NCBI GenBank assembly: GCA_050012475.1
Contig: JBEKHC010000085.1
Span: 1-22,197 of the forward strand
Reading direction: 5' to 3'
Origin: Candidatus Velthaea sp.
Lineage (GTDB): Bacteria > Vulcanimicrobiota > Vulcanimicrobiia > Vulcanimicrobiales > Vulcanimicrobiaceae
DNA length: 22,197 nucleotides
The notes under the pieces are model-generated. The model saw only the letters and a program-made list of their open reading frames with translations, was not told the DNA's origin and did not search any database. Shown one piece after another: positions 282 to 19,999 of this stretch; positions within the stretch are counted from its first letter, which is position 1, and the number at the start of each line of letters is the position of its first letter. The position numbers and the translations under genes are program-made.

Positions 282-3159
282 ATGGCCGTCGAGCCCGCCG
301 CTCGTGAAGGAACGTCGGCTTTCGAAACGATGGCCGAGCCGGCCCTCAATCCCGAACTGCGCGCGGCGCTGGAAGCGGCATTTCCGGCGCAGGCACTCAA
401 ATTCGACGAGATCTATCGCGCCGTCTATGGACGCGACGGATCGTACTTCGCAAGCATTGCTGCGCATCGGATCGCGTTTGAACGTTCCGATCACGCTGCG
501 GGCCGGGGGGAGCTCGCTGTGCGGACAAACGGTGGGAACCGGCGTCATCGCCGATCAACGGTTCGCGTTCCGCGGCAGCGAACTGCGCGACGGCGGCAGC
601 AAAGTGTGGTTCGAGCCCGGCCTGACGGTTCTCGGGCTCAATACGGTTCTCAAGCCGGCCGGCAAGAAGGTCGGTCCCGATCCGGCGTCGAGCCAGGTCG
701 CGATGATGGGCGGCGTGCTCGCGAACAATGCCAGCGGGATGCAAGCCGGCACGAAGTACAACGCCTACGAAACGCTGGCCTCGATCGACTTCGTGCTGCC
801 CAACGGCAACCGCTACGACACCGCGCGGCCGGACGACCGCGCGCGTTTCGTGCGCGACGAGGCGGCGACGTACGCCGGGCTTGCCGCGCTGCGCGACGAG
901 GTTCGCGCGAACGCCGAACTGTGCGCGCGCATCCGGCGCAAATACGCGATCAAGAACGTCTCGGGTTATGCGATGAATTCGTTCCTCGATCACGACGAGC
1001 CGATCGATATCCTCGCCCACCTGCTGATCGGATCGGAAGGGACGCTGGCCTACATCGCGTCGGCCGAACTCTTCACCGTGCCCATCGCTGCCGACCAATC
1101 GAGTTCGCTGCTGTTCTTCTTCGACGTCGTCCAAGCGGCGGCGTCCGTGCCCGCGCTCGTCGAGAGCGGCGCCGCGGCGATTGAATTGATGGATATCGCG
1201 TCGCTGCGGTCGGTCATCGGGCGCCCCGGCGTCCCCGAGATCGTCGCGACGCTGCCCGACGGTGCTGCAGCGTTGCTCATCGACTACCAAGCCGCCGATC
1301 GAGCCGCATTAACGGCACAACAAGAGCACGCCGAGGCGGTCATCGCGACGCTTCCGCTGCTGGCGCACCTGCCGTTCAGCACCTCGAACAAGGAACGTGC
1401 GCTGCTCTGGACCGTGCGCAGCGGCATCTTTGCCAGCGTCGGCGGCGCCCGCACACCCGGGACGACCGTCATTCTCGAAGACGTCGCGGTTCCCGTCGAA
1501 AGTTTGGACAAGCTCATCTTAGGTCTGCAAGAGCTGTTCGCAAAATACGGGTACGACGGCGCGGTGTTCGGCCACGCGAGCGTCGGCAACATCCACTTCC
1601 TGGTGACCGACGATATGGGCGACGCCGCGCGCGTGAGCCACTTCGGCTCGTTCATGAACGAAGTCGTCGAACTCGTGCTGCGCTACGACGGTTCGCTCAA
1701 GGCCGAGCACGGGACCGGCCGCGCGATGGCGCCCTTCATCCGCGCGGAATGGGGCGCCGACGCCTATCGCGTGATGAAGGAGCTCAAGGCGCTCATCGAT
1801 CCCGGCAACCTCATGAATCCGGGCGTGCTCATCAACGACGACCCCAACGTACATCTCGCCCACATCAAAGGCATGCCGCTGCTCGGCGACCCGGTCGCCG
1901 ATCGCTGCATCGAGTGCGGCTTCTGCGAATGGGTCTGTCCAACGCGCTATTCGACGTTGACGCCGCGCCAGCGCATCCAAGCACACCGCGTGCGGCTCTC
2001 GCTGGACAATGCGGGCCAGCAGAGCCGGGCGCGCACGATCGCCCAGCAGTACGAATACGAAGGCCGCGAATCATGCGTCGCCGACGGCATGTGCCAGACG
2101 GTCTGCCCGGTGGGCATCAGCACGGCGTACATCACCGATTACGATCGCGCCCAAGCCGCATCCCCGGGCGCGGAGAAACTCATGGAAGCCGCCGCCCGCA
2201 ATTTTCTGCTGTTCGAAAACGCGGTGCGCGTTGCGCTCGACGGCGGCAGCGCCGTTCAAAAGATCGCCGGCAACGCCGCGATGCCCCGGCTCACCGAAAT
2301 GCTCGCCAGGCTGCTGCCCGCCTTTCCGCAGTGGTCGCGCAGCATCGGCCGCGCCCCCGCGCGTCCGCATACGCCGCCCCGCACGGCAGAAATCGTCTAC
2401 TTTCCGGCCTGCGTGACGCGCATGATGGGCTCGTCGGCACTGGGCAAGGACAATGTCATGGAAACCGTGCTGCGGGTAGCGCACCGCGCCGGCGTGCAGA
2501 TGTACTTGCCCAAGAGTGCGCGCGGGCTGTGCTGTTCGCAGCTCTTCGCCCATCAGGGATTCTCTGGGGCACAGCAGGTGATGGCGAACCGCATCGTCGA
2601 GGCGATGTATACCTGGAGCGCCGGCGGCCGGGTGCCGATCATGTGCGACATCACGTCGTGCGCGCGCACGCTGCTGGCCGAACTGGAGACGGAGATGTGG
2701 GGCGACCGGCCGCGGCTCCTCACCGAAGCCAATGCCGCCAAATACAAGCAGCTCAAGATCGTCGACATCGCCGAGTGGCTGCACGACGATGTGCTGCCGC
2801 GACTGGAGGTCAGTCGGCCGAAGAACTCGGTCCTGATGCATCCGACGTGCGCGTGTCATCAGCTGGGGCTCGAAGAGAAGATCGAGGCGATCGGCAATGC
2901 GTGCGCGCGCGAAAGCACGACGCCGTTTAGCGCCGGCTGCTGCGGTGCCGGCGGCGATCGCGGGTTCCGTTATCCCGAAGGAGCCGCATCGGCGCTGCGC
3001 GATGAACGCGCGGAGCTCGCCGGCCGCACGTTCGACGGGGCGTATTCGTTTGCGAAAAGCTGCGAGATCGTGCTAAGCGATCACCTGCCGCACGCGTTCG
3101 AGTCGATCGTGTATCTCGTCGACGAAACGACGTCCGCCAAGCGCACCGGCCCCGCCTAG
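282..3159 (+). pseudogene. FAD-binding/(4Fe-4S) oxidoreductase (Dld-II-type D-lactate dehydrogenase, GlcD/GlcF-like fusion), frameshifted near 450
   Basis: ATG at 282 follows the purine-rich AAGGGGGGA and reads MAVEP…RAVYGRDGSYF (homologous to the family's D-A-S-x-[FY] motif). The family sequence resumes in another frame at 451 (QALLRIG…RAGGSSLCGQ, GPDPAS, GH..GN.H, GSLKAEHGTG, CIECGFCEWVCP, CVADGMCQTVCP, Cys-rich CCG domains) to TAG at 3159. Could also be an assembly error. Confidence 0.8.
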
Positions 3160-3260
3160 ACGCGCGGCACGAATCGACGCCCGAACGTCCTATGCGGCTC
3201 TGGTACGCTGAACGATCCATGTGGCCGTCGCGCGGGCGTTGCCCCGTCCCTACGGAACGA

Positions 3261-3977
3261 TCACCTTGTCGCTGAAGAGCCGTCGCTGCTCTTTGCCGGT
3301 TCGACACGCACGACGATCACGTGCAGGTGGCGGGGGCCATGCGCACCGCGCACGATCGTGAGTTCGATGTCGGCGGTGCGCGACGGCCCCGTTACGAAGT
3401 TGACGGTGCGCGGCATGAACGCTGAGCCCGGCTGCGCGCGCCGCAGTTTCGCGAACGCGTCCTCGTAGGAGCCGAGCACGTCGGAGGCAGCGAGCACGAC
3501 GACGTGCGTGTCGGGCATGAAGTTGAGCGTGGCCGGGCGGTCGGCGCTTGAAACGAGGACCAGCGTGCCGGTCTCGGCCACAGCGGCAAAGCACGGCGTG
3601 ACGCTGACAAGGTCGTCGGACTCGGCGCGCCCGCGCCCGATCTCGAGCGCCGACTCGTCGTGCCAAGGAATCCGGTCGAGCGCCGGATCGGGCGACATGC
3701 GCAGCCGCGTCGGCAGATCGTGTTCGGTCAGATACGCGAGCAACGCGGCCGGGACGTCATTGTACGACGTCACGTGAGCGAAGGTCGTGCCGACGTCTTC
3801 GGCAAGCCGCTCGAACAGCGCGAGACGGCCGGTTTCCGGTCCGTTCGCCCGCGCCGGGATGAGGTTTGGCGCGTGCGCGGCGACCCGCGCTTCGAGCCGC
3901 TCAACCTCTTCGGCCGAGAGCGGACCGCGGCCCAGACCGGCGCGGATGCGCGCGAAGATCGCTTCGCCGGCGCTCAT
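3261..3977 (-). CDS. lutC: lactate utilization protein C (LUD domain; LutC/YkgG/LldG)
   Basis: Start re-placed at ATG 3977, which overlaps the lutB stop (TGATG). Motifs AETGTLV, FMPDTHVVV, TGPSRTADIE, GAHGP. Confidence 0.9.
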   Translation of the reverse strand: MSAGEAIFARIRAGLGRGPLSAEEVERLEARVAAHAPNLIPARANGPETGRLALFERLAEDVGTTFAHVTSYNDVPAALLAYLTEHDLPTRLRMSPDPALDRIPWHDESALEIGRGRAESDDLVSVTPCFAAVAETGTLVLVSSADRPATLNFMPDTHVVVLAASDVLGSYEDAFAKLRRAQPGSAFMPRTVNFVTGPSRTADIELTIVRGAHGPRHLHVIVVRVEPAKSSDGSSATR

Positions 3978-5407
3978 CACGCGCGCCAGCGGCGCACGCC
4001 CGCCTGCCATTGTTCGCTGAACGTGCGCCCCTCGGGCGCCGGCAAGTCGCGCGCCGCGGTCCAGCCGCCCGCAAGCGGCAACCGCGCGAAGCGGCCCTTG
4101 GGTCCGGCGAGTTTGGCCAAAGCGGCGACGGCGACCCGCGTCGCCAAACGGTACAGCCGCGGACGCCGCGCGAACCAAGCCCAGAAGCGAATGCCGGCCC
4201 GCTGCGGCGCAGGCGTCAGCTCGCGCTCGAACGACTGCTCGCGCCAGTAGCGCATGATGTTCGGCAGCGGGATGCGCACCGGGCAGACGTCCTCGCATTT
4301 GCCGCAGAATGACGAAGCGCCGGGCAGGTCCGCTGCTTCCTCCAAGCCGATGAAGTGCGGATCGATTGCAGCGCCGATCGGGCCGGGATACACCCAGCCG
4401 TAGGCGTGACCGCCGACGGAGCGATAGACCGGGCAGTCATTGAGGCATGCGCCGCAGCGAATGCAGCGCAGCGCGTCCTGCAGCTGCGTGCCGAGCATCG
4501 CCGAACGGCCGTTGTCGACCACCACGACGTGGAACGCGCTGGGACCGTCGAGATCGTCCGGACGTTTGGGGCCGGTCGAGAACGTCGTGTAACACGTGAC
4601 CTCTTGACCGGTTGCCGAGCGCGCCAAAAGCCGCAGCAGCGTGCACGCGTCTTCGAGCGTCGGCAACACTTTTTCGATCGACGCGATGACGATGTGCATT
4701 TGCGGCAGCATCTGCGTGAGATCGCCGTTGCCTTCGTTGGTCGCGATGATCGTCGTCCCGGTTTCCGCAATGAGGAAGTTCGCGCCGGTGATCCCGACGT
4801 CGGCTTCGAGATATTTGCGGCGGATGATCGCGCGCGCTTCGCCCACCAGCGCTTGGGCGTCTGTCAACCGTTCGGTCTTACCGTACTGCCCGTGATTGGC
4901 GACGAAGAGATCGGCAATCTGTTCTTTGCTGAGGTGAACCGCCGGCACGACGATGTGGCTGGGGGGCTGATCGGCAAGCTGGATCACGTATTCACCCAGA
5001 TCGGTCTCGATCGGCTGCACGCCGTTGGCTTCCAAGAACGGGTTGAGCGCGATCTCTTCGGCGACCATCGACTTCCCTTTGGTCGCGGTCTTGGCCTCGA
5101 CACTGCGGCACAGCGCGAGGATCGTTTCGCGCGCCTCGCGCGCCGTCGCGCACCAATGCACGTGGCCGCCTTGCGCGACGACTTCGCGCTCGAATCGGGC
5201 GAGATAGAAATCGAGATTGGCGAGCGTGTGATTTTTGATCTCGACCGCGCGATCGCGCAACGCGTCGAACTCGGGCAACCGCGCCACGGCCGCGGCGCGC
5301 GCTGCGCTGAAGCCGCCCGTTTCCATCCGGCGCAGTGCGCCCTGCAGGATTGGATCGGCCATCGCCGACCGGGCGTTGGCTTTGAACGCGTGACTGGTGA
5401 TTTTCAT
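3977..5407 (-). CDS. lutB: L-lactate oxidation iron-sulfur protein (LutB/YkgF/LldF)
   Basis: KGKSM..EEI, ETDLGEY, PPSHIV.PA.H, NEGNGDL, RSATGQ, CIRCGACLNDCPVY, YPGPIG, CGKCEDVCPV. Confidence 0.95.
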   Translation of the reverse strand: MKITSHAFKANARSAMADPILQGALRRMETGGFSAARAAAVARLPEFDALRDRAVEIKNHTLANLDFYLARFEREVVAQGGHVHWCATAREARETILALCRSVEAKTATKGKSMVAEEIALNPFLEANGVQPIETDLGEYVIQLADQPPSHIVVPAVHLSKEQIADLFVANHGQYGKTERLTDAQALVGEARAIIRRKYLEADVGITGANFLIAETGTTIIATNEGNGDLTQMLPQMHIVIASIEKVLPTLEDACTLLRLLARSATGQEVTCYTTFSTGPKRPDDLDGPSAFHVVVVDNGRSAMLGTQLQDALRCIRCGACLNDCPVYRSVGGHAYGWVYPGPIGAAIDPHFIGLEEAADLPGASSFCGKCEDVCPVRIPLPNIMRYWREQSFERELTPAPQRAGIRFWAWFARRPRLYRLATRVAVAALAKLAGPKGRFARLPLAGGWTAARDLPAPEGRTFSEQWQAGVRRWRA

Positions 5408-5420
5408 GCGACGGGCGCCT

Positions 5421-6188
5421 TCACGGCCGCGTCGCGCCGATGCCCGGAGCCGCGGTCAGTCCCGCTAATACCTCCGCGACGTGGCGCACCCTCACCGCCG
5501 AACCGTCGCGCTGCAGTTTCCCGGCAATGTTGAGCAGACAGCCCATGTCGCTCGAAAGCAGCGTGCCGGCACCGGTCGCGACGACGCTGCCGGCCTTCTT
5601 GCGCACGATGTCGGCGGAAATGTCGGAATACTTCACGCAAAACGTTCCGCCGAACCCGCAGCAAACATCCGCATTGGGCAATTCCGTCCGCTGCAAGCCC
5701 GCAACGGAGTCCAGCAGCCGGCGCGGCTGGGCGTGCACGTTCATTTCGCGCAACGCCGAACAGCTGTCGTGATAGGTGACCGCGCCGTCGAACCGCGCAT
5801 CGACGCGCTCGACGCCCAGCACGTCGGTAAGAAACGAAACGAGCTCGTAGGTGCGGCCGGCCAGGTCCGTCGCCGCCTCGCGGAAACTGGGATCGCCGGC
5901 GAACAACGCGGGATAATGGACTTTGAGCATTCCGCCGCACGAACCCGACGGCACCACGACATAATCGAATTCACGGAACGCGGCGATGACCGCGCGTGCG
6001 ATCGCGAGGGCGTCTTGGCGGTCGCCGGAATTGTACGCGGGTTGACCGCAGCAGGTCTGCGCCGCCGGAACCGTCACCCGGCAACCGGCGTCTTCAAGCA
6101 GCTTGACGGCCGCAAAGCCGACGCTGGGGCGAAACAGATCGACCAGACAGGTAACGAACAGGCCGACTTCGAGGCGCGCTGTCTTCAT
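5421..6188 (-). CDS. lutA: lactate utilization protein A, (Fe-S)-binding CCG-domain protein (LutA/YkgE/LldE)
   Basis: LFVTCLVD, QTCCGQPAYNSG, YHDSC, CCGFGGTF, DMGCL. Start placed at ATG 6188, which has a GGAGG RBS just upstream. Confidence 0.93.
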   Translation of the reverse strand: MKTARLEVGLFVTCLVDLFRPSVGFAAVKLLEDAGCRVTVPAAQTCCGQPAYNSGDRQDALAIARAVIAAFREFDYVVVPSGSCGGMLKVHYPALFAGDPSFREAATDLAGRTYELVSFLTDVLGVERVDARFDGAVTYHDSCSALREMNVHAQPRRLLDSVAGLQRTELPNADVCCGFGGTFCVKYSDISADIVRKKAGSVVATGAGTLLSSDMGCLLNIAGKLQRDGSAVRVRHVAEVLAGLTAAPGIGATRP

Positions 6189-6287
6189 CGTACCTCCGTG
6201 CGGAGCAGCCGAGCCGACCCTCATAGGTGCGCGCGAAGTCCGAGCGCTCCTTCAAGGGGTTTTCGACCGGCGTCGAAGTAGCGCTGG

Positions 6288-6788
6288 GTGACGAACCGGT
6301 GGCGTATCGTCCCTGGGCCCGGCCAGGAATCGGTTTGGGACTATCCGCGACCGCCGCGTATCGAGCGCGTCGCTGTTTTGTTGTGCGTCGAACACGGCGG
6401 CCGCGAGATCGCGCGCAGCTCCGGCGGCTGGCGGGTGCTCGAAACGAGTCACCCCCCGGTCTACTATTTGCCGCCCGAGTCGATCGCCGCCGCGGCCTTG
6501 CGCCCCAATGACCGGACGTCGTTTTGCGAATTCAAAGGCGTCGCCCGCTATTGGGATCTCGTCGAGGGCGACCGCGTCGTCGTGGCCGACGCCGGCTGGT
6601 CGTATCCGTCGCCGGCGCCGGCCTTCCGAGCGCTGACGAATCATATTGCGTTGTACGCCGCACGTCTGGACGCGTGCTACGTCGGCAGCGAGCGCGTCAC
6701 GGCGCAAGCCGGTGATTTTTACGGCGGCTGGATCACGGCAAATATCGTGGGGCCTTTCAAAGGAGCGGTCGGGACATGGGGCTGGTAG
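6288..6788 (+). CDS. DUF427 domain protein
   Basis: ESVWDYPRPP, VLETSHPPVYY.P, CEFKG.A.Y, WSY..P, FYGGWIT…GPFKG are characteristic of DUF427 proteins. GTG start. Confidence 0.88.
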   Translation: MTNRWRIVPGPGQESVWDYPRPPRIERVAVLLCVEHGGREIARSSGGWRVLETSHPPVYYLPPESIAAAALRPNDRTSFCEFKGVARYWDLVEGDRVVVADAGWSYPSPAPAFRALTNHIALYAARLDACYVGSERVTAQAGDFYGGWITANIVGPFKGAVGTWGW

Positions 6789-8170
6789 ACGCAGCGCACG
6801 CCGGCTCGTCGACGTTCCACGGAGCCGACTCGGTGCGGGTGCCCAACGAGTGGAGGGTGCTGTTCTGGAGCCTGGCGTGCATCGCCGCCGCCGCGCCGCT
6901 GCTGGCTTATCTTTTTCCGAGCTTCGCGGCGGGCAAGGAGATCTCGCTTTTGGTGATCGGCGCGCTGCTCTTCGTAACGTTCGCGCGCGGACGGCTGATC
7001 GGCGGGAGCCTGCGCGTTCACCCCGGGCAATTCGGTGACGTGTACGCGATCGCGCTGGAATGCTCGCGCGCGCTGCGCATGCCCGTCCCCAACGTGTTCG
7101 TGCGCGACGACCCGCTGGTGCCGATCGTCGCGGTCGGGATCGGCGAACCGTACTCGCTGATCGTCTCCGCGCGCTGGATCGAGCATTTCACGCCGCAAGA
7201 ACTGCGCTTTCTCATCGGCCGCGAACTCGCGCACATCGATGCCGGGCACACCCGCGTCACCTCACTGCTGAGCGTCAGCGGTCGAGAGAATGCGCTCGTG
7301 AGCGTGTTGTTCGGAGCATGGCTGCGTCGCATCGAATACACTGCCGATCGCGCCGGGCTGCTCTGCTGCGCGTCGCTCGACGACGCGCTGTCGGCGATCT
7401 CCGTATCGACGTTCCAGCTCGTCGGGCGGACGATCGATCCGGCGGCCTTCGCCGAGCAGCAGCATGAGATCGATGCCGAGCGCGGTCTGCGCATCGGCGA
7501 ATGGGTTTCGTCCAATCCGTACGCCGGCAAACGCATCGCCGCGCTGCGCAGCTTCGCCCGCGATCCGTCATACCTCCAGTGGTCGGCGCGCTTCGCGCAA
7601 TTTCGCGTCACGCCGTTCGTTGCGCCGCCGCTCCCCGCCGGCGCTGTGGCGCGCCGCGCTTACGCCAATTTCCCGCGGCGCCTGGCGGCTTTCCTGATCG
7701 ATGCGATCGTCATCGAAGCGCTGCTGCCCCGCCTGCCGCTGCAGATCGCCAGTGAAACCGCCGCCGACCCAACGCTGCCCAAATGGCTGCTCGACGCGGT
7801 GCGCCACCATCCGCACCTGTTTGCGGCGGTCGACAGCAGCGGCGGCTGGGGCGTGCTCGTCGCGATGCTGTACTACGTGCTGCTCGTTGGGCTGGCCGGC
7901 CAAACGTTCGGCATGATGATCGTCGATCTGCGCGTGATGACCGAGCGTTTCGGGCGGGTCGGGCTCGGGCGGGCGCTCGCGCGTTTCGGCTGCCTGGTCG
8001 GATCGATGGTCTGTGTCATCGGCATCATCAAGATCTTCAGCCGAATTCAACCGTTCGAAAAATGGTCCGGGACGCGGCTCATCGCCGGAACGGCCTACAT
8101 CCGCAGCCGGGATCGGCTTACGGGGCAGCCGCTCGAGGCGGTGCCGCCGTTGACGTCGCTGTCGCCGTAG
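6776..8170 (+). CDS. membrane protein with an M48 (HtpX/Ste24)-like domain, degenerate zinc motif, fused to a C-terminal RDD domain
   Basis: N-terminal TM helices; ELRFLIGRELAH, EYTADRAG, NPY..KRI; then RDD-type YANFPRRLAAFLID…GQTFGM.I..LRV…RALAR. Start uncertain (ATG 6776 or a nearby GTG). Confidence 0.8.
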   Translation: MGLVDAAHAGSSTFHGADSVRVPNEWRVLFWSLACIAAAAPLLAYLFPSFAAGKEISLLVIGALLFVTFARGRLIGGSLRVHPGQFGDVYAIALECSRALRMPVPNVFVRDDPLVPIVAVGIGEPYSLIVSARWIEHFTPQELRFLIGRELAHIDAGHTRVTSLLSVSGRENALVSVLFGAWLRRIEYTADRAGLLCCASLDDALSAISVSTFQLVGRTIDPAAFAEQQHEIDAERGLRIGEWVSSNPYAGKRIAALRSFARDPSYLQWSARFAQFRVTPFVAPPLPAGAVARRAYANFPRRLAAFLIDAIVIEALLPRLPLQIASETAADPTLPKWLLDAVRHHPHLFAAVDSSGGWGVLVAMLYYVLLVGLAGQTFGMMIVDLRVMTERFGRVGLGRALARFGCLVGSMVCVIGIIKIFSRIQPFEKWSGTRLIAGTAYIRSRDRLTGQPLEAVPPLTSLSP

Positions 8171-9386: not shown

Positions 9387-10361
9387 GTGAGAGCGATCCA
9401 AATCCAACGTCACGGCGGCCCCGACGTGTTGGAACTCGTCGACATCCCGGTTCCCCAGCCGGGCCCCGGCGAGGTTCGCGTCAAGCAGACCGTCGCGGGG
9501 TTGAACTACATCGACGTCTATTTGCGCATGGGCATCTACCAGCGCGAGCTGCCCTTCGTTCTTGGACGCGAGGGTGCGGGGACGGTCGACGCGTTGGGCG
9601 CGGGCGTCACGGAATTCGCGCTGGGCGAGCGGATCGCGTATTTAGATGCGGCGCACCTGGGCGGTTACGCCGAATATGCGGTGGTCGCGGCCGCCGAGGC
9701 GGTGCCGGTGCCCGCCGGTGTCGACGACCGCACCGCGTGCGCCGCGATGCTGCAAGGGTTCACGGCGCAGTATCTCGTTTCCAGTACGTACCCGGTCGCA
9801 TCCGGCGAGACGATCCTCGTCCAGGCCGCGGCGGGCGGTGTCGGGCTGCTCTTGACGCAGCTGGCCAAGCTCGCCGGCGCGACGGTCATCGCCACGGCCG
9901 GCGGCCCGGAAAAAGTCGCCCTCGCGCAAGCTGCCGGCGCCGATCACGTCATCGACTATCGGGCGACCGATTTTGCTCCCGAGGTCGAGCGGCTCACGGC
10001 CGGGCGCGGCGTCGCCGTGGCATACGATTCCGTCGGCCGCGATACGTGGGAACGCAGCCTCGCCCTCTTGGCCAAACGCGGCTATCTGGTGTGCTACGGC
10101 GCTTCGAGCGGACCCGTGCCGCCTATCGATCCGCAACGCTTGTCGGCGGCCGGTTCGATCTACCTCACCCGTCCGACCCTGGGCGACTACAAGCGCACGC
10201 GCGACGAACTGCTGAGCCGCATGAACGAACTCTTCGGGCTCATCGCCGAAGGCAAACTCAACGTTCGCATCGGTGCCACCTATCCGCTGGCCGCCGCTGC
10301 GGACGCGCACCGCGATCTCGAAGCGCGCTTGACCACCGGTAAGGTCCTACTGCTGGTCTAG
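9387..10361 (+). CDS. qor: NADPH:quinone oxidoreductase (zeta-crystallin/MDR family)
   Basis: Start placed at GTG 9387 (MRAIQIQRHGGPDVL). GLNYID.Y.R.G.Y, LG.EGAG, AAAGGVG, YDSVG, YGASSG, GSIYLTRP, TTGKVLL. Confidence 0.92.
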   Translation: MRAIQIQRHGGPDVLELVDIPVPQPGPGEVRVKQTVAGLNYIDVYLRMGIYQRELPFVLGREGAGTVDALGAGVTEFALGERIAYLDAAHLGGYAEYAVVAAAEAVPVPAGVDDRTACAAMLQGFTAQYLVSSTYPVASGETILVQAAAGGVGLLLTQLAKLAGATVIATAGGPEKVALAQAAGADHVIDYRATDFAPEVERLTAGRGVAVAYDSVGRDTWERSLALLAKRGYLVCYGASSGPVPPIDPQRLSAAGSIYLTRPTLGDYKRTRDELLSRMNELFGLIAEGKLNVRIGATYPLAAAADAHRDLEARLTTGKVLLLV

Positions 10362-13826: not shown

Positions 13827-14597
13827 ATGACCTTGCCTTCCGCGTTTACCGAACTCCGCGAGCGGTTCGATCAGCGCTTTCGCGATACGTCGCAGGCCGC
13901 GTTCACGCTGGCCGACGAGGCGGTCTTGCGGACCGGAATGCTCGAATTCGACCGCATTTTGGGCGGCGGGCTGCCGCGCGGGACGATTGCGACGCTCGAA
14001 GGGGCGCCGAGCTCGGGCCGGCTGGCGATTGCGGCCCGGCTGCTGGCCGTCGCGACCTCGGCCGGCCTGGGTGCAGTCGTCGGCACCCCGACGTTCCCAC
14101 CGGCCCTGTCGGCCGCCGGGGTTCGGCTCGAGCGGCTCCTGATCGTCTCCACGTCGGAACCCGTCGGCGCGGCTCGCGCCGCCGACATCCTTTTACGCTC
14201 CGGAGCCTTTTCCGTCGTTGTGATCCCGGCATTGCCCAGCGGTCGTGGAACGGGCTCGGCGACCTGGACGCGGCTGGCGAGTTTGGCCCATCGCGCGAAT
14301 GCCGTCCTGATTGCGGTGGGATTTCAAGCATCGAGCGAACTGCGGTACTTCGCCTCGGTGCGGCTCGAAACGGCAATCGAGCGGGTGCGCTGGAACGGGC
14401 CGCCCGGACACTTCGGAACCCTCGCCGGTTACGACGTGCGCGCGACGGTGCGCAAGCACAAACGCGCCGTGCCGGGCGCCAGCGCGCTCATCACCTGCAC
14501 GACATTCGAGGCTCACGCTCCGCTCGTTGCGCTGCGCGAACACCTGCTTGCGACAGCATCCGCGCCGGCGCGCACGCGCGCGTCGACCGCCGTATAA
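13827..14597 (+). CDS. imuA: ImuA-like RecA-family accessory protein of SOS mutagenesis
   Basis: TG..EFDRILGGGLPRG, degenerate Walker A (GAPSSGRL), AGV.LERLLIV, AADILLRSGAF..VV. It follows an SOS box and precedes imuB. Start re-placed from 13386 to 13827. Confidence 0.82.
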   Translation: MTLPSAFTELRERFDQRFRDTSQAAFTLADEAVLRTGMLEFDRILGGGLPRGTIATLEGAPSSGRLAIAARLLAVATSAGLGAVVGTPTFPPALSAAGVRLERLLIVSTSEPVGAARAADILLRSGAFSVVVIPALPSGRGTGSATWTRLASLAHRANAVLIAVGFQASSELRYFASVRLETAIERVRWNGPPGHFGTLAGYDVRATVRKHKRAVPGASALITCTTFEAHAPLVALREHLLATASAPARTRASTAV

Positions 14598-14598
14598 C

Positions 14599-14626
14599 GA
14601 CCCGTCGAGCCAAGGCCCGACGGGTC
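14599..14626 (+). terminator. GC-rich hairpin immediately after the imuA stop (possible terminator, no U-tract)
   Basis: GACCCGTCG (14599-14607) pairs with CGACGGGTC (14618-14626). Confidence 0.4.
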
Positions 14627-14645
14627 ATTGCAGCGGCCAAAACTC

Positions 14646-14838
14646 AGGGATCGTCTGGTTTCGTCCTGGCGAGGAGCCTAGCGGCGAAGTTTGCTTTCAG
14701 CAAATGAGCCGCGTAGCGACGAAGTCCCGGCGAAGGGATCGTCTGGTTTCGTCCTGGCGAGGAGCCTAGCGGCGAAGTTTGCTTCAGCAAATGAGCCGCG
14801 TAGCGACGAAGTCCAGGGCGAAACCAGACGATCCCTTC
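14646..14838. repeat. tandem pair of the palindromic hairpin element (copy 2 lacks its right arm; copy 3 is complete)
   Basis: 88-nt period (14647 vs 14735). Copy 3 has a perfect 20-bp inverted repeat, GAAGGGATCGTCTGGTTTCG (14732-14751) and CGAAACCAGACGATCCCTTC (14819-14838). Confidence 0.9.
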
Positions 14839-15326
14839 AGATGAGTCCGATGAATTTGCTGGTAATTCGACCGCTTGCCGATTCCGGGCGATCGAGCAAT
14901 TCGGTCGCGAACCGGATGAGCGATCGGAATTTCGACGTGATCGATTTCATTCGCGATGCCTCCAGAACAGACGAGACGCGACCAAAATCCGCATCTCGTC
15001 CAGCTATTATATAGCAACTGCTGCTAACGTCAATTGTATCGCCGAACTCTTGATACATTCAAGCCAAATCTTATAGAACGAGGAGTGGAAGACTTGTCTA
15101 GTGAGGTTGAGCCGACCATCGCCGTTTCGAAGCCAAACCAGACCCTTGGCCTGCCTGCCTAGGACAAAAGACTTGTTTAGACGAGCTTCGATCGCCCTCG
15201 GACGGCATCAATAGTTATCAAATCATTATGAAAGACGGCCGATCCGGACCAATGGTTTAATCTGCCTGGAATGTTTACAAAAGCGGCGCTGGGGCCGGGC
15301 TTGAAACGGCGCGGGCGACAATTCGC

Positions 15327-15355
15327 TTGCAAGCGAACATGTGTTCGATTATAAT
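15327..15355 (+). promoter_or_regulatory. sigma70-type promoter with a LexA (SOS) box upstream of imuB
   Basis: TTGCAA (15327-15332), a 17-nt spacer containing CGAACATGTGTTCG (15334-15347), then TATAAT (15350-15355). ATG follows 8 nt later with no SD sequence. Confidence 0.9.
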
Positions 15356-15363
15356 GGGCTCCC

Positions 15364-16854
15364 ATGCCCATCATCTGCGTTCTGGCTCCGGCTTTTCGAC
15401 TGCACGTCGCCCGCTTGAGCGATCCGGACGTGCCGACGGCCGGCCCGGTCCTCGTCGCCGATAAACCCGAGCGCGGCCGCGTCATCGAGTGCTCCGCTGC
15501 CGCCTCGGCTCTGGGCGTCCGGCCGGGGATGACGCTCGTTCAAGCCCAAGCCGCCGCTCGGGATGCCCGCGTCGTCATCGACGACCCGCGGCACGACGCC
15601 GGCATCTGGCAGGCGATGCTCGAGGCGCTCGACGCAGCTTCGCCGCTGATCGATGATGCCGGCTTGGGCTGCGCGTATCTGGAGATGCACGGGATCGAGG
15701 GCGGCACGGCCGGCTGGCTGGCCGCCGTTCGCGGGGCGCTGAGCGGCTTCGATTTGCCGCTGCGCTTGGGTCTCGCCGCCAATCCGTTCGTGGCGCGCGC
15801 CGCGGCGCTCGTTGGCGATGGAACCAGTCTCGACGACGGCATGGCGGCGGATTTTCTGGCACCGCTGCCGCTCGAAACGCTCGAGCTCGACACCGCCACA
15901 ATCGAACGGCTCGCGATCTTGGGCATCCGCACGCTGGGCGAACTCGCCGCGCTGCCGCACGGTCCGTTCGTGCGGCGGTTCGGGCCGGAGGGTGCGGTTT
16001 GGCACGACCGTGCCCGCGGGATCGATCCGCGTCCGCTGCGCCCGCGCGCCCGCGCCATGCGCATCGACCGCACCCTTTATGGCGAAGGCAGCGCGTCGAG
16101 CGAAGATCAGGTGCTCTTCGCGTTGCGCACGCTCGTGGGCCGAGTGGTCGACGACTTGGAAGTCGCGGGCAAACGCTGCGGCGCGCTCGTGCTGGGGTTG
16201 GAGTGCGAAGACGGCGACGTCCATGAGATCACGACCCGCGTCGCCCAGCCGACCGCGCAGCCAACCACGCTCTTCGAATTATTGCGGGCGCGCTTGGAAG
16301 GTGTCGTGCTCCGTTCGGCCGTCGTCGGCTTGCGGCTTGCGGCTGGGCACTTGGAAAACGGCGGCGTTCAAATCGCGTTGTTTGCCGCGGGCGATCCCGA
16401 CCCCGACGCGCTGGGCATCGCCATCGCGCGGCTCGACGCGGCGCTGGGCGAAGATCACGCGTTGCGAGCGCGGGTGGTCGAGGGTCCACGCATCGAATCG
16501 CGCTATGCCCTCGAACCCTTTACGCTCGACACCCCGGCGAACACCGCCTGGTCCGCCGGTGACGCGTCCGTTTCGGCTCTACCGGGGACGGCCGCCGTCC
16601 AATTGCGCCTGATCGATTCGACTCCCGTCGATGTGCTGCTGCGCGCCGGAATGCCGCGCTTCATCGGTTCGCCGCCGCAAGCGATCATCGACGTCGCCGG
16701 ACCCTGGCGCGTCGATGAAAGCTGGTGGACACCGGCCACCGGCGGCGGCACACCGCTGATGCGCGATGAATACGACGTGCTGCTCGAAGACGGGGCGCTC
16801 GTGCGCCTCGTCCGCGAAGGCGAACGCTGGAGCGTGCGCGGGATGTACGACTGA
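15364..16854 (+). CDS. imuB: ImuB, catalytically inactive Y-family DNA polymerase homolog
   Basis: S..A.ALGVRPGMTL.QAQA, FLAPLPL..L, L..LGIRTLGELAALP…RFG, ARG.D, a clamp-motif-like QIALF, and a C-terminal GPW.V…WW…G.YD domain. It lacks the N-terminal catalytic D-M-D-x-F motif. Confidence 0.9.
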   Translation: MPIICVLAPAFRLHVARLSDPDVPTAGPVLVADKPERGRVIECSAAASALGVRPGMTLVQAQAAARDARVVIDDPRHDAGIWQAMLEALDAASPLIDDAGLGCAYLEMHGIEGGTAGWLAAVRGALSGFDLPLRLGLAANPFVARAAALVGDGTSLDDGMAADFLAPLPLETLELDTATIERLAILGIRTLGELAALPHGPFVRRFGPEGAVWHDRARGIDPRPLRPRARAMRIDRTLYGEGSASSEDQVLFALRTLVGRVVDDLEVAGKRCGALVLGLECEDGDVHEITTRVAQPTAQPTTLFELLRARLEGVVLRSAVVGLRLAAGHLENGGVQIALFAAGDPDPDALGIAIARLDAALGEDHALRARVVEGPRIESRYALEPFTLDTPANTAWSAGDASVSALPGTAAVQLRLIDSTPVDVLLRAGMPRFIGSPPQAIIDVAGPWRVDESWWTPATGGGTPLMRDEYDVLLEDGALVRLVREGERWSVRGMYD

Positions 16855-16887
16855 GGATTCGGGGCTTAACTGAGGATTCGGGGCTTA
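16850..16887. repeat. perfect 19-nt tandem duplication spanning the imuB/carbonic anhydrase stop-codon junction
   Basis: ACTGAGGATTCGGGGCTTA occurs at 16850-16868 and 16869-16887. Confidence 0.9.
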
Positions 16888-17415
16888 GACGAAGTCTGAG
16901 CCCCGCACCTCGTTGAGGCGCCCAGTGGCGACGTCGAAGATGAACCCGCTCACGCGGTCGCGATGCAGCAGGTGTGGATCGGCTTTGATGCGCGCGATGC
17001 CGGCCCGCACGTCGGTGGCCAGATCGTCGAACGCATTGAGCGCATAGGGCGGTTTGAATCCCGTCTCGGCGGCGATTTGCGCGCGCAGCGCGTCGTCGGT
17101 AAACGTCAGCATGCCGCAATCGGTATGATGAATCAGGATGATCTCATTGGTGCCCAGCAGCCGCTGCGAGATGACCAGCGAGCGAATCGCGTCGTCGGTG
17201 ACGACACCGCCGGCATTCCGAATGACGTGCGACTCGCCTTCGTGTAAACCCAAAATACGATACACGTCCAAACGCGCATCCATGCACGCCACGATCGCCG
17301 TGTGTTTGGCCGGCGGCAGTGGGAGCGGCCCCCGGAACGTGCGCGCGTAGGCGTCGTTGTTGCGCAGGTATTCGTCGGTGACCGTGGCCGGGGTCGCGAT
17401 ATCCGTAACACTCAT
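16885..17415 (-). CDS. beta-class carbonic anhydrase (short Rv1284/Cab-like, clade D type)
   Basis: Zinc ligands ACMDARL and HHTDCG, plus HVIRNAGG.VT.D.IRSL.ISQ.LLGT.EI and G..FDV.TG.L. ATG 17415 is preceded by GAGGAG. Confidence 0.93.
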   Translation of the reverse strand: MSVTDIATPATVTDEYLRNNDAYARTFRGPLPLPPAKHTAIVACMDARLDVYRILGLHEGESHVIRNAGGVVTDDAIRSLVISQRLLGTNEIILIHHTDCGMLTFTDDALRAQIAAETGFKPPYALNAFDDLATDVRAGIARIKADPHLLHRDRVSGFIFDVATGRLNEVRGSDFV

Positions 17416-17448
17416 CGAAGACACTCCTCAAAAGCAGAACGACAGAGC

Positions 17449-17483
17449 AAAAAAAAGTCCCCCTCACCATCGGCGAGGGGGAC
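17449..17483 (-). terminator. intrinsic terminator (probable attenuator) ~35 nt upstream of the carbonic anhydrase start
   Basis: Minus strand reads GUCCCCCUCGCC-GAU-GGUGAGGGGGAC-UUUUUUUU: a 12-bp stem with one G-U pair that forms only on this strand, followed by 8 U. Confidence 0.9.
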
Positions 17484-17521
17484 GACGCATTCACGAAACG
17501 CTGCGCGAAAAAGCCGCTGCC

Positions 17522-17584
17522 TCAACCGATCCGATCCGGCGGCCGACAACAGACCAACGAGCAATGCCCGCGCAGCGATTTCAC
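17522..17584 (-). CDS. putative Cys-containing attenuator leader peptide MKSLRGHCSLVCCRPPDRIG
   Basis: GTG 17584 to TGA 17522, 20 codons, with Cys codons TGC and TGT-TGT. Its stop codon lies within the antiterminator arm. The start codon is uncertain and the SD signal (GGTAGG) is weak. Confidence 0.65.
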   Translation of the reverse strand: MKSLRGHCSLVCCRPPDRIG

Positions 17585-17643
17585 GCTACCTACCGACACC
17601 GTCCGCGCAGCACTGGATGCAGCGGCGGCCGGTCTGCCGTTCG

Positions 17644-19212
17644 TTAGACGGCTAACCGGTCGACGTGACCGTCAAGGCGCCACGCCGCGATCCCGATGAG
17701 CGAGCCGCTCTCGATGATCGCAAGCAGTACGCCCGCGACCAGCCCGGCGAGCGACGCATCGAAGATCGATGCGACGACCACGGCCAGCACGAACGGCGGA
17801 ACCAGCAGCGTCGCCGTCATCCCCAAGCGCAGAACCGTCACCGGCCCGCGCAAATCCACTGGACCCGGAAACAGCGCGAACGTCGCAAAACCCACCGCGC
17901 CCAGCAAACCGACGAGCACGGGCATCCCCACCCCAAAGAAGATCGTGCCGGCCGCCGATCCGCCGCTCAAGGCGAACGTCAGCGCGATGAGTTCGAGCGC
18001 CGCGATCAACGGCCACACCCGCGCCAGCACGAGCGCACAGAGCCGCTCGAACAACGGCGCCCGGGCCAACCAAAACAAGGGCCGCCGAATTTCGCCGGTG
18101 ATCGAGTTCGTCGCCGTGATGCCGATGATGCCGATGACGAGCACCACGTTGACGATGATCCCGCCAAGCGTCGTGAAGAACGCTTCGCCGTCCGCTTTCG
18201 CGATCCGCGCGGCGCTGAACCCGGCCACGCAGCAGAGCACGGCAGCGCCCACGATATATTCACGCTTCGTGCGGCGGCCGAACTCGACCATGGCTTTCCA
18301 GATGAAGATGAATACGCCGGGCGGCGCGGGCAGCGAAAATTGGCGGCCGCGCACGACCGACACGGGTGCGGTGCCTTTCTCGCGCCGCTTGTGCCAGCGC
18401 TCGAGCCGATCGATCCGCGCAACCGAAAGCGCGTACAATTCCGGATACGCATCGCGACCCGCCGACGCCAGCACGACGATCGCCGCGGCGGTCAGCGCAA
18501 GCACGGGGATCAGCCATTGCGGATGCGGCGACAGCAGCACGCGTCCCGGGTGCCAAGCCGGCACGGCGGTCAGGATGAAATGCGCAAGCTGCGGCGGCAA
18601 CGGCAGCGGCGAACCCGCAACGAAGTCGCGCACGGCCGGCGCGATCGCGAGCACGACCAGCGGCGAGAAGATTATCCCACACGCCAAGCTGCCCAGCCGG
18701 GGCAGCATCCGCCGCGGCACGACGACCACGGCCGATGCCGTGACGGTCGCCGAACCCAAGATCAAATCGATGATGACCGTGGCCGCACCCAACTGCCGCG
18801 GCCCGAACAGAAAGATGAAATACGTGAACGAGAACAGCAAACGCACGCCGCGCGCCAGCGCTTCGCGCGCCTGCAAGTACGCGATCGCCAACGGCGCCGG
18901 CACCGGCGAGCCGATGATGAACCGCGCTTCCGCCCGGCTGCGAAAAATCCCGACCGCTCCCAGCCCGCTGGCCAGCGAGAACGCCAGCGTCGCCAGCAAA
19001 ATGCAGACGAAATAATCCGCCCGCGCAAGATCGCTCGTCCCGCCGTGCGTCGCGCCCGGTCCGCGCGCAATGCTTCGGCTCCAAAAGAAAAACCCGAGCA
19101 CCCCGAGATACCCGATCCAAACGGCGATCCGGCCCGGCGAGCGCAGCCCGCGCCGAACGTCGTTGACGATCCCGCGCCGGTCGGCGTAGGCCAGGGTCAA
19201 GAGCGCGTTCAC
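17644..19212 (-). CDS. putative ABC exporter permease (multi-TM membrane protein)
   Basis: Many hydrophobic segments, F…EARFIIGSPVP. Its GTG start overlaps the ATPase stop (GTGA). Confidence 0.8.
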   Translation of the reverse strand: MNALLTLAYADRRGIVNDVRRGLRSPGRIAVWIGYLGVLGFFFWSRSIARGPGATHGGTSDLARADYFVCILLATLAFSLASGLGAVGIFRSRAEARFIIGSPVPAPLAIAYLQAREALARGVRLLFSFTYFIFLFGPRQLGAATVIIDLILGSATVTASAVVVVPRRMLPRLGSLACGIIFSPLVVLAIAPAVRDFVAGSPLPLPPQLAHFILTAVPAWHPGRVLLSPHPQWLIPVLALTAAAIVVLASAGRDAYPELYALSVARIDRLERWHKRREKGTAPVSVVRGRQFSLPAPPGVFIFIWKAMVEFGRRTKREYIVGAAVLCCVAGFSAARIAKADGEAFFTTLGGIIVNVVLVIGIIGITATNSITGEIRRPLFWLARAPLFERLCALVLARVWPLIAALELIALTFALSGGSAAGTIFFGVGMPVLVGLLGAVGFATFALFPGPVDLRGPVTVLRLGMTATLLVPPFVLAVVVASIFDASLAGLVAGVLLAIIESGSLIGIAAWRLDGHVDRLAV

Positions 19213-19922
19213 GCGTGCGTGATCGCGAGAAAAACGTCTTCGAGCGTCCCGCTGCCCATGGCGTGCAGCTCATCGATCGTGCCGCTCGCCACGACGAGGC
19301 CGGCATTGAGAATGACGACCCGATCGCACAACGCCTCGGCAGCCTCGAGCTGATGCGTGCTCAACATGATCGAGGTCCCCGTCGCGCGCAAATCGCGCAA
19401 CACCTCGCGCAAGCCGCGCTGGCCTAGCGGATCGAGACCGATCATCGGTTCGTCGAGCAAGAGCACCGGCGTATTCGCGAGGACCGTCGCCGCGACCAGG
19501 GTTTTCTGGCGCATCCCTTTGGAAAGATCGCTGCCCAGCGTATCGCGTACGCCGTCCATGTTGAACCGTTCGAGCAGTGTCTGCCCGCGCGCTTCCCAGC
19601 CCGCGGGCAGGCGCGCCAGCCGGGCGACGAACACCAAGTGTTCCCACACCGTTAAGAGCGGGTACACGTCGGGCGTTTCCGGGATGAGCGAAACGATGCG
19701 GCCGCGGTCGCGGCCGAGCAGTTCGCCCGCGTAGCTCAGCGTGCCCGAGTCGGGACGCAGCAAGCCGCACAGAATGCCGAACGCCGTCGATTTACCCGCC
19801 CCGTTGGGACCGATCAGTCCGACGATCTCGCCGGCATCCACCGTGAACGACACGTCGACGAGCGCGGTTGTCCGGTTGTACCGCTTGGCAAGGTGCTCGA
19901 CGACGAGGGCAGGCTGACGCAT
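19209..19922 (-). CDS. ABC transporter ATP-binding protein
   Basis: Walker A GPNGAGKS, signature LSKGMRQK, Walker B LLLDEP, H-loop STH. Confidence 0.95.
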   Translation of the reverse strand: MRQPALVVEHLAKRYNRTTALVDVSFTVDAGEIVGLIGPNGAGKSTAFGILCGLLRPDSGTLSYAGELLGRDRGRIVSLIPETPDVYPLLTVWEHLVFVARLARLPAGWEARGQTLLERFNMDGVRDTLGSDLSKGMRQKTLVAATVLANTPVLLLDEPMIGLDPLGQRGLREVLRDLRATGTSIMLSTHQLEAAEALCDRVVILNAGLVVASGTIDELHAMGSGTLEDVFLAITHA

Positions 19923-19999
19923 CAAGAAACGGTTCGGAACCGGCGGTGGCGTTCTCTTCCCGGCATGTGTGGACGACGCTAAGAAAAGAATAATTCGAC

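What the first reader, a model, noticed from the sequence alone, without database searches (positions are those of the whole stretch)
16885..17600. Cysteine-sensing leader-peptide attenuator controlling a clade-D beta-carbonic anhydrase: candidate sulfur-scavenging (COS hydrolase) system
Seen in sequence (minus strand): (1) a 20-codon uORF at 17584-17522, MKSLRGHCSLVCCRPPDRIG, with three Cys codons, two of them tandem TGT, uncommon in GC-rich coding DNA; (2) a strong intrinsic terminator at 17483-17449, only ~35 nt before the CA start; (3) an alternative fold in which AUCGGUUGAGG (17530-17520, containing the uORF stop) pairs with CCUCGCCGAU (17478-17469, terminator left arm plus loop), enclosing nested helices GCGGC/GUCGU and UUCGCG/CGUGAA. 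A ribosome reaching the stop would mask the antiterminator, whereas one stalled at the Cys-Cys codons 7-8 codons earlier would leave it free. Established: this is the geometry of classical ribosome-mediated attenuation. Cys-rich uORFs regulate sulfur genes in mycobacteria, clade D beta-CAs include COS and CS2 hydrolases that release H2S, and M. tuberculosis Rv1284 lies next to cysD/cysNC. Inference: the enzyme is induced by cysteine starvation and supplies sulfide, possibly from trace-gas COS, rather than only hydrating CO2. I do not recall a described attenuator on a CA gene.
Basis: partly seen in the sequence, partly recalled or inferred. Interest (0 to 1): 0.9.

Follow-up and report, generated by a model that had tools for sequence, protein, structure and literature searches.

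The report
Cysteine-sensing switch on carbonic anhydrase
A tiny cysteine-coding reading frame and a transcription stop signal sit in front of a carbonic-anhydrase-type gene, so this bacterium most likely makes the enzyme when it runs short of cysteine, which points to a job in winning sulfur, perhaps from the gas carbonyl sulfide, and not only in handling CO2.

Summary
Observation confirmed. The uORF, terminator and antiterminator are at the stated places. The leader recurs before the same enzyme in 11 related loci. Upstream genes differ, tandem Cys codons stay in frame in 9 of 12 loci, and the antiterminator is kept as RNA in different reading frames. In this genome 16 of 198 leader-like terminators carry a CC/CxC uORF (controls 0-3), mostly before sulfur genes. 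Actinomycete orthologs carry an unrelated Cys-ending leader that elsewhere heads ssuA, tauE and tauD. A published Rhodococcus dataset shows the syntenic ortholog 24-fold up on DBT versus sulfate. Cysteine-sensing attenuation: about 0.85. Against: no promoter found for this copy, weak covariation, this copy's antiterminator no better than shuffles, no expression data. COS hydrolysis is inference (about 0.5): sequence cannot separate COS hydrolases from CO2 hydratases, and ambient COS gives too little sulfur for growth. The scan noted this arrangement before in an acidobacterium, and the Cys leader regulon elsewhere in this genome. New variant of a known kind.

The parts
17522..17584 (-). Leader uORF, 20 codons from GTG; alternative in-frame starts GTG 17599 and TTG 17557
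   Evidence: equivalent uORFs in 11 orthologous loci
17546..17551 (-). Tandem TGT TGT control codons, 8-9 codons before the stop
   Evidence: tandem in 9 of 12 leader loci; 22 TGT and 6 TGC in all
17520..17530 (-). Antiterminator 5' strand, contains the uORF stop
   Evidence: kept at nucleotide level in two reading frames relative to the Cys codons
17482..17517 (-). Nested helices enclosed by the antiterminator (17517-17513/17486-17482; 17509-17504/17495-17490)
   Evidence: prediction only
17449..17483 (-). Intrinsic terminator: 12-pair stem 17483-17457 plus T8; its 5' arm and loop (17478-17469) are the antiterminator's partner
17424..17429 (-). Shine-Dalgarno-like hexamer of the CA gene
16885..17415 (-). 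Rv1284-like cab-type (clade D) beta-carbonic anhydrase, 176 aa; Zn ligands C44, H97, C100, dyad D46/R48; monocistronic here (next gene converges)
17603..17628 (-). Hairpin without a T tract between the ABC permease stop and the uORF, kept in the same-genus ortholog; role unknown (3' end of the ABC transcript, or part of a promoter)
17644..19925 (-). Upstream ABC exporter pair (ATPase and PF16962 permease); context only, shared with one ortholog; possible source of read-through transcription

Best explanation
A classical ribosome-read transcription attenuator that senses charged tRNA-Cys. With cysteine plentiful, the ribosome runs to the uORF stop, covers the antiterminator strand, the terminator folds and the CA gene is not transcribed. 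With cysteine scarce, the ribosome stalls on TGT TGT, the strand 17530-17520 is free and pairs with the terminator's 5' arm before its 3' arm is made, and polymerase reads into the CA gene. The gene thus belongs to this genome's sulfur-starvation regulon. The most likely use of a clade D beta-CA in that regulon is hydrolysis of COS (or CS2) to H2S for cysteine synthase, mainly from local soil or intracellular COS, with ambient air a minor source. Shown: the parts, their conservation, the regulon context. Inferred: translation of the uORF, the switch itself (about 0.85), a role in sulfur economy (about 0.8), COS as substrate (about 0.5).
For: Leader with Cys codon(s) and terminator in 7 of 17 same-family genomes that hold this CA and in 5 of 8 close metagenome loci, behind different upstream genes. 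Masked folding: terminator 5' arm paired upstream with probability 0.75 on stall and 0.18 at stop; higher on stall in 12 of 12 loci, marginally in two. Duplex better than shuffles in 8 of 11 orthologs (at most 42 of 1000). Genome scan: 16 of 198 for Cys, 0-3 for nine other residues; 9 of the other 15 head sulfur-type genes. An unrelated Cys-ending leader precedes the CA in 19 of 165 loci with enough upstream DNA and elsewhere heads ssuA x4, tauE x3, tauD and cysteine dioxygenase (9 of 14 non-CA loci). cysD lies downstream in 18 of 178 loci. Syntenic Rhodococcus ortholog log2FC 4.59 and 3.80 on DBT versus sulfate (PMC13689224 Table S2). The genome holds two other beta-CAs and cysteine synthases. 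Known COS activity maps to beta-D CAs (PMC13098186, PMC10880591, passages).
Against: No promoter found for this copy, while 13 of the other 15 Cys leaders show a sigma-70 pattern. This copy's antiterminator: 378 of 1000 shuffles as good. Antiterminator covariation not above control (75 of 500). At full-length equilibrium the terminator wins in every state, so the switch must be kinetic. 10 of 17 family orthologs lack the leader. Arg-Cys-Arg also ends Thr leaders, so single-Cys leaders are weaker evidence. Rv1284 is described as having high CO2 activity and no COS-diagnostic residue is known (PMC12035519). Ambient COS yields roughly 900-7,000 S atoms per day per 10,000 sites against an assumed quota of 6-28 million. 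In the Rhodococcus data the cysteine synthases were not induced, so that contrast is not plain cysteine starvation, and no leader was seen there.
Confidence: 0.55

Rival explanations
1. The Cys switch is real, but the enzyme is an ordinary CO2 hydratase serving the sulfur-starvation response: supplying or removing bicarbonate for a SulP-type sulfate transporter, or buffering acid from desulfonation.
For: The genome's only SulP match sits behind a Cys leader too. Rv1284 is described as highly active on CO2 (PMC12035519, passage). Authors of the Rhodococcus and Gordonia studies propose pH control. The genome has a RuBisCO large subunit.
Against: Two other beta-CAs exist in the genome. The CA was not found next to a SulP family gene among the recurring neighbour clusters scanned (42 representatives). 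The protein has the Leu pair (L33, L87) of the poor CO2 hydratase CafC, although PMC12035519 says these residues do not decide activity.
Confidence: 0.25
2. The leader reads cysteine shortage as a proxy for thiol or oxidative stress, and the CA acts with an OsmC-like thiol peroxidase in redox or sulfide handling, not in sulfur uptake.
For: An OsmC-like gene follows the CA on the same strand in 6 close leader-bearing loci; another OsmC-like gene has its own Cys leader (L252). Mycobacterial Cys leaders include mshA (bioRxiv 834739, Discussion).
Against: No OsmC gene beside the CA in this genome or its same-genus relative. The second cysteine of Rv1284, recalled as its redox switch, is Gly70 here.
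Confidence: 0.1
3. In this genome the leader is decayed or constitutive: the hairpin ends a read-through transcript of the ABC operon and the uORF is not translated.
For: No promoter and only a weak SD for the uORF; antiterminator not above chance in this copy; decayed leaders exist among relatives (L125, L126).
Against: Tandem Cys, an in-frame GTG, antiterminator and terminator are all kept in the same-genus ortholog despite divergence, with a frame-keeping 3-nt length difference. No room for a promoter in the 33 nt after the T tract.
Confidence: 0.07
4. The leader is a nascent-peptide sensor for a metal or small molecule (Zn, Cu, sulfide, bicarbonate) through a Cys-Arg motif, not a tRNA-Cys gauge.
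For: Cys-Arg recurs, and three orthologs have Arg-Cys-Arg in place of Cys-Cys-Arg; the enzyme needs Zn.
Against: Nothing else in the peptide is conserved; four orthologs have Pro or Leu after the Cys pair; the same leader type heads sulfur genes, not metal genes.
Confidence: 0.03

Closest known systems
Mycobacterial polycysteine leaderless sORF attenuators (Ms5788A, 'Cys ribulon'; bioRxiv 10.1101/834739, abstract, section 9 and Discussion read; tables are images and supplements closed)
   Same: Short uORF with at least two consecutive Cys codons controlling downstream genes; many loci per genome; sulfur genes.
   Different: Ms5788A acts by freeing a sequestered ribosome-binding site; here there is an intrinsic terminator with an antiterminator. 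No sequence match to the NCBIfam leader models. 'Carbonic anhydrase' occurs 0 times in that paper's held text.
Classical amino-acid transcription attenuators (trpL, hisL, thrL, ilvB type)
   Same: Control codons, stop codon inside the antiterminator strand, terminator with U tract, same spacing logic.
   Different: Senses cysteine; PMC1262725 (passages) found actinobacterial Cys leaders without terminators. The target is not an amino-acid biosynthesis enzyme.
M. tuberculosis Rv1284 (1YLK), cab-type beta-CA
   Same: Best solved match, E 9e-67 over residues 10-170; same Zn ligands. Mycobacterial orthologs lie upstream of cysD/cysNC.
   Different: Leu for Met at position 33, Gly for Cys at 70; no Cys leader recognised before the mycobacterial orthologs scanned.
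COS hydrolases (T. thioparus 3VQJ; fungal ThCOSase, GtCOSase) and CS2 hydrolase (3TEN)
   Same: Same clade D fold and ligands; E 8e-38 and 1e-22; cab-type His63 and Ile82 match ThCOSase His55 and Ile73 by way of the CafC alignment.
   Different: About 35 residues shorter than 3VQJ across the region of its tunnel loop; fungal COSases lack that loop too. Activity untested.
Actinobacterial cis_reg_atten leader peptides (NF042934)
   Same: Short Cys-ending leaders; three CA orthologs (L038, L067, L078) carry look-alikes.
   Different: The window's leader does not match; L038 and L078 score below the curated cut-off; L067 was not scanned.

Membership tests
Classical ribosome-mediated transcription attenuator | Short uORF with control codons for one amino acid | tested here: met
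   tandem Cys in 9 of 12 loci
Classical ribosome-mediated transcription attenuator | Intrinsic terminator between uORF and gene | tested here: met
Classical ribosome-mediated transcription attenuator | Mutually exclusive antiterminator, exposed on stall and covered at stop | tested here: met
   (0.75 versus 0.18); conserved pairing 97.9%; but covariation and this copy's duplex not above controls
Classical ribosome-mediated transcription attenuator | Promoter upstream of the uORF and a translatable start | tested here: inconclusive
   none found in the window; sigma-70 pattern in L116, L117, L119 and a shared AGGWATC-N14-GAA pattern in seven others
Classical ribosome-mediated transcription attenuator | Read-through depends on the amino acid and on uORF translation | not testable with these tools
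   needs reporters or Term-seq/Ribo-seq
Mycobacterial Cys ribulon (Ms5788A type) | At least two consecutive Cys codons upstream of an operon | tested here: met
Mycobacterial Cys ribulon (Ms5788A type) | Leaderless start at the transcription start | tested here: inconclusive
   no -10 box at the leaderless distance in the window
Mycobacterial Cys ribulon (Ms5788A type) | Homology to the described leader families (NCBIfam) | tested here: not met
   0 families for the window leader and five orthologs
Known riboswitch or T-box | Match to an Rfam model at gathering score | tested here: not met
Clade D (cab-type) beta-carbonic anhydrase | CxDxR and HxxC Zn-binding motifs | tested here: met
   C44, D46, R48, H97, C100
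Clade D (cab-type) beta-carbonic anhydrase | Closer to Rv1284, CafC, Cab and COSase than to plant-type CAs | tested here: met
   by search scores. The tree (quick method) held no named references.
COS hydrolase | High COS activity with low CO2 hydration | not testable with these tools
   PMC12035519 finds no sequence or tunnel feature that decides this
COS hydrolase | Tunnel-narrowing loop of T. thioparus COSase | tested here: not met
   the loop is also absent from fungal COSases, so it is not required

The most novel reading that the evidence does not exclude
Rv1284-type beta-carbonic anhydrases of soil bacteria are sulfur-scavenging COS hydrolases. They have been placed under cysteine-starvation control several times independently (this terminator-type leader, the actinomycete FWPxRR leader, cis_reg_atten-like leaders, cysD operons). 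Bacterial COS uptake in soil would then be a regulated response to sulfur shortage, and slow-growing trace-gas users could draw maintenance sulfur from air.
Probability: 0.4. Interest if true: 0.88.

Novelty: new variant of a known kind. Interest (0 to 1): 0.7.

Why it matters
Papers on COS-degrading heterotrophic bacteria state that the physiological role of the activity is unknown (PMC10880591, introduction passage). A cysteine-gated switch on the gene gives a concrete, testable answer: the enzyme is made for sulfur. It would also reinterpret a well-studied CA clade, predict that soil COS uptake, which is used as a photosynthesis tracer, depends on microbial sulfur status, and add a terminator-type cysteine attenuator to the known translational ones. 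The actinomycete leader makes the test possible in cultured, tractable strains.

Tried and rejected
Riboswitch or T-box: no Rfam match at gathering score in the window leader or 10 loci. Known leader families: no NCBIfam match. Promoter search: no sigma-70 site; my guesses of an ECF-type and a sigma-H-type pattern show no spacer peak upstream of 4037 predicted genes, whereas TTGAC..TAnnnT does. A sigma-H gene is present, but its pattern is not seen in this copy. Thiocyanate hydrolase as an internal COS source: the one PF02979 match scores as nitrile hydratase. The inositol-monophosphatase neighbour I first took for CysQ scores best as HisN and is not counted as a sulfur gene. Expression: no RNA holder was listed. 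First neighbour scan picked wrong frames in many GC-rich loci and was replaced. The tree finished only in quick mode and lacks COSase, CS2 hydrolase and Rv1284 rows. Literature: ten searches listed no paper on a leader-peptide attenuator of a CA gene; the library lacks most subscription papers, among them Ogawa 2013 and 2016. PMC8557817, PMC7711268 and bioRxiv 2026.07.28.741166 gave nothing relevant in term searches. The clade of the Gordonia CA could not be fixed. No structure or complex prediction was run; solved homologues made it unnecessary.

Full report
Observation. The protein is a cab-type beta-CA whose best solved match is Rv1284 (E 9e-67), followed by fungal CafC, COS hydrolase (8e-38) and CS2 hydrolase (1e-22). 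A CC uORF at that distance from the terminator arises in 77 of 5000 shuffles. No Rfam or NCBIfam leader model matches. The genome is 5.36 Mb, 64% GC, with RuBisCO. No call names its lineage; my guess from gene content is Candidatus Eremiobacterota.

Conservation. 17 of 348 same-family genomes hold this CA at E <= 1e-59. Seven of the 17, this one included, have a Cys uORF plus terminator (L001, L002, L111, L114, L116, L117, L119); ten do not. Two of those ten, L003 and L004, come from unpublished genomes G024 and G032; they show a terminator-like hairpin but no clear Cys uORF, and only this count rests on them. Of 8 close metagenome loci, 5 have the full leader, one is cut off, and two look decayed. 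Across the 12 leaders the Cys pair is tandem in 9; the codons are 22 TGT and 6 TGC, against 17% TGT genome-wide. Upstream genes differ, and in L114 and L117 the upstream gene diverges, so the terminator is not simply the end of the ABC operon. The antiterminator sequence is kept while its reading frame relative to the Cys codons changes, as expected if the codons matter as codons and the 3' part as RNA. These loci are kin and not independent.

Switch. With the 3' arm of the terminator not yet made, the 5' arm pairs upstream with probability 0.75 when a ribosome is modelled on the Cys codons, 0.18 when it is at the stop, and 0.22 with no ribosome; stall exceeds stop in 12 of 12 loci, only slightly in L116 and L119. 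At full length the terminator dominates in all states in this copy, so the choice must be made during transcription. The duplex beats shuffles in 8 of 11 orthologs but not in this copy (378 of 1000). On 9 aligned loci the antiterminator is 97.9% paired with one compensated pair, not above control (75 of 500); the terminator has three compensated pairs (16 of 500).

Gap. I found no promoter for this copy. 13 of the 15 other Cys leaders show TTGAC and TAnnnT shortly before their start (read by eye), as do L116, L117 (and loosely L119); seven close orthologs share AGGWATC-N14-GAA, which resembles the sigma-H consensus as I recall it, and a sigma-H gene is present. The window has neither. A TAGCGT hexamer at 17588-17583 overlaps the GTG; if it is the -10 box, the uORF would start at TTG 17557. 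Read-through from the ABC operon is also possible.

Regulon. A scan of this genome found 198 terminators standing before a gene and away from the upstream gene; 16 carry a CC or CxC uORF, against 0-3 for nine other residues. Nine of the other 15 head sulfur-type genes: sulfite reductase, cysH, cysE and one ssuA above curated cut-offs, and tauC-, tauA-, ssuA-, metN- and metQ-like genes below them; six have no clear sulfur label, one of them probably false. Looser Cys leaders precede sfnG, sfnB, a cystine-binding protein, the only SulP match and cysK. This independently repeats earlier scan notes on this genome.

Enzyme clade. Among 165 CA loci with enough upstream DNA, 19 (17 named actinomycete genomes, 2 metagenome contigs) carry an unrelated leader, L-x-x-F-W-P-x-R-R ... 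F-D-x-x-C, with the Cys in 18; three more carry cis_reg_atten-like leaders. A profile of that leader gave 28 matches in 5 genomes. Of 19 loci examined (one weak locus dropped, eight not fetched), 5 head the CA and 14 head other genes: ssuA x4, tauE x3, tauD-like, cysteine dioxygenase, PF03601, an LLM monooxygenase, a regulator, and two unassigned. cysD follows the CA in 18 of 178 loci, mostly mycobacteria. In R. qingshengii IGTS8 the CA peg997 (164 codons, between hisN and a divergent prfB, the same order as L067, L077 and L102) has log2FC 4.59, 3.80, 1.50 and -0.18 over four phases on DBT versus sulfate; the other four CAs and the cysteine synthases are unchanged in early log (PMC13689224, passages and Table S2 rows). 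Orthology rests on synteny and size; I did not see its sequence. A Gordonia CA of unknown clade rose about 5 log2 in a like contrast (PMC11852219, table row and supplement row).

Substrate. Known COS activity maps to beta-D CAs, and a fungal COSase supports growth on COS (PMC13098186, PMC10880591, PMC8209446; passages). PMC12035519 (parts 2 and 3 of 5, and passages) reports that neither tunnel shape nor gate residues separate COSases from CO2 hydratases, and calls Rv1284 highly active on CO2. The window's enzyme therefore cannot be assigned by sequence. With published kinetics and 500 pptv COS, 10,000 sites give about 900-7,000 S atoms per day, and each subunit repays its own five S atoms in 7-55 days; my assumed cell quota is 6-28 million atoms. 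Ambient COS can at best serve maintenance; richer local sources are needed for growth. No thiocyanate hydrolase was found with the one family searched. Rivals are bicarbonate or pH support for sulfate transport, and redox work with OsmC, which follows the CA in 6 close loci.

Verdict. A real cysteine-type transcription attenuator on a clade D CA is likely (about 0.85). It works like trpL-type attenuators and shares its signal with the mycobacterial Cys ribulon, without homology to those leaders. COS scavenging is the best single explanation of why (about 0.5), unproven. Ten literature searches listed no attenuator on a CA gene; supplements of the bioRxiv Cys-ribulon paper were closed and may hold data on the mycobacterial ortholog. 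The scan has noted the same arrangement in an acidobacterium, which I did not check.

Noticed in passing
L031, L040-L042, L047, L048, L052, L056-L058, L063, L072, L076, L079, L083, L093, L094, L150, L192; L218-L236: A conserved actinomycete leader peptide (FWPxRR...FDxxC), 4-7 matches per genome in Pseudonocardia and Streptomyces, heads CA, ssuA, tauE, tauD and cysteine dioxygenase genes; no NCBIfam model matched the 8 scanned. Possibly an undescribed single-Cys sulfur leader family with a conserved peptide.
   Followed up: partly
G000:C39:12700-85700, C18:24100-27100, C61:4867-4982 and 9400-9700: Large set of Cys-leader attenuators before sulfur genes, most on one contig.
   Followed up: yes
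G000:C20:9950-10045 (L265): An 8-codon uORF with a single Cys, resembling the start of the L119 leader, precedes cysK, followed by a short hairpin and T run.
   Followed up: no
L243-L263: The RNA model also finds Cys, Cys/Met and Thr leaders in 29 of 150 other family genomes, before PAPS reductase, Cys/Met PLP enzymes, SulP, NlpA, OsmC, PALP enzymes and homoserine dehydrogenase: leader attenuation is common in this family.
   Followed up: partly
L111, L114, L122-L124, L127, L129 upstream of the uORF: Shared AGGWATC-N14-GAA pattern 9-13 nt before the start codon, like a sigma-H promoter (consensus recalled); a sigma-H gene above cut-off exists in 3 of 5 genomes tested.
   Followed up: partly
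L111, L122, L123, L124, L127, L129: OsmC-like gene directly downstream of the CA on the same strand.
   Followed up: partly
window 16850-16887: Exact 19-nt tandem duplication spanning the gap between the converging CA and ImuB-like stops, with no hairpin.
   Followed up: no
window 14646-14838: Two near-perfect tandem copies of an 87-88-nt unit with inverted ends between the imuA-like and imuB-like genes; looks like a miniature mobile or REP-type element.
   Followed up: no
window 13830-16854: imuA-like and imuB-like (Y-family) genes; no dnaE2 was seen beside them in the ORF list.
   Followed up: no
L112, L113: The CA lacks the leader and lies behind the terminator of a gene whose C-terminus looks like a PQQ-dependent dehydrogenase (recalled, not scanned).
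   Followed up: no
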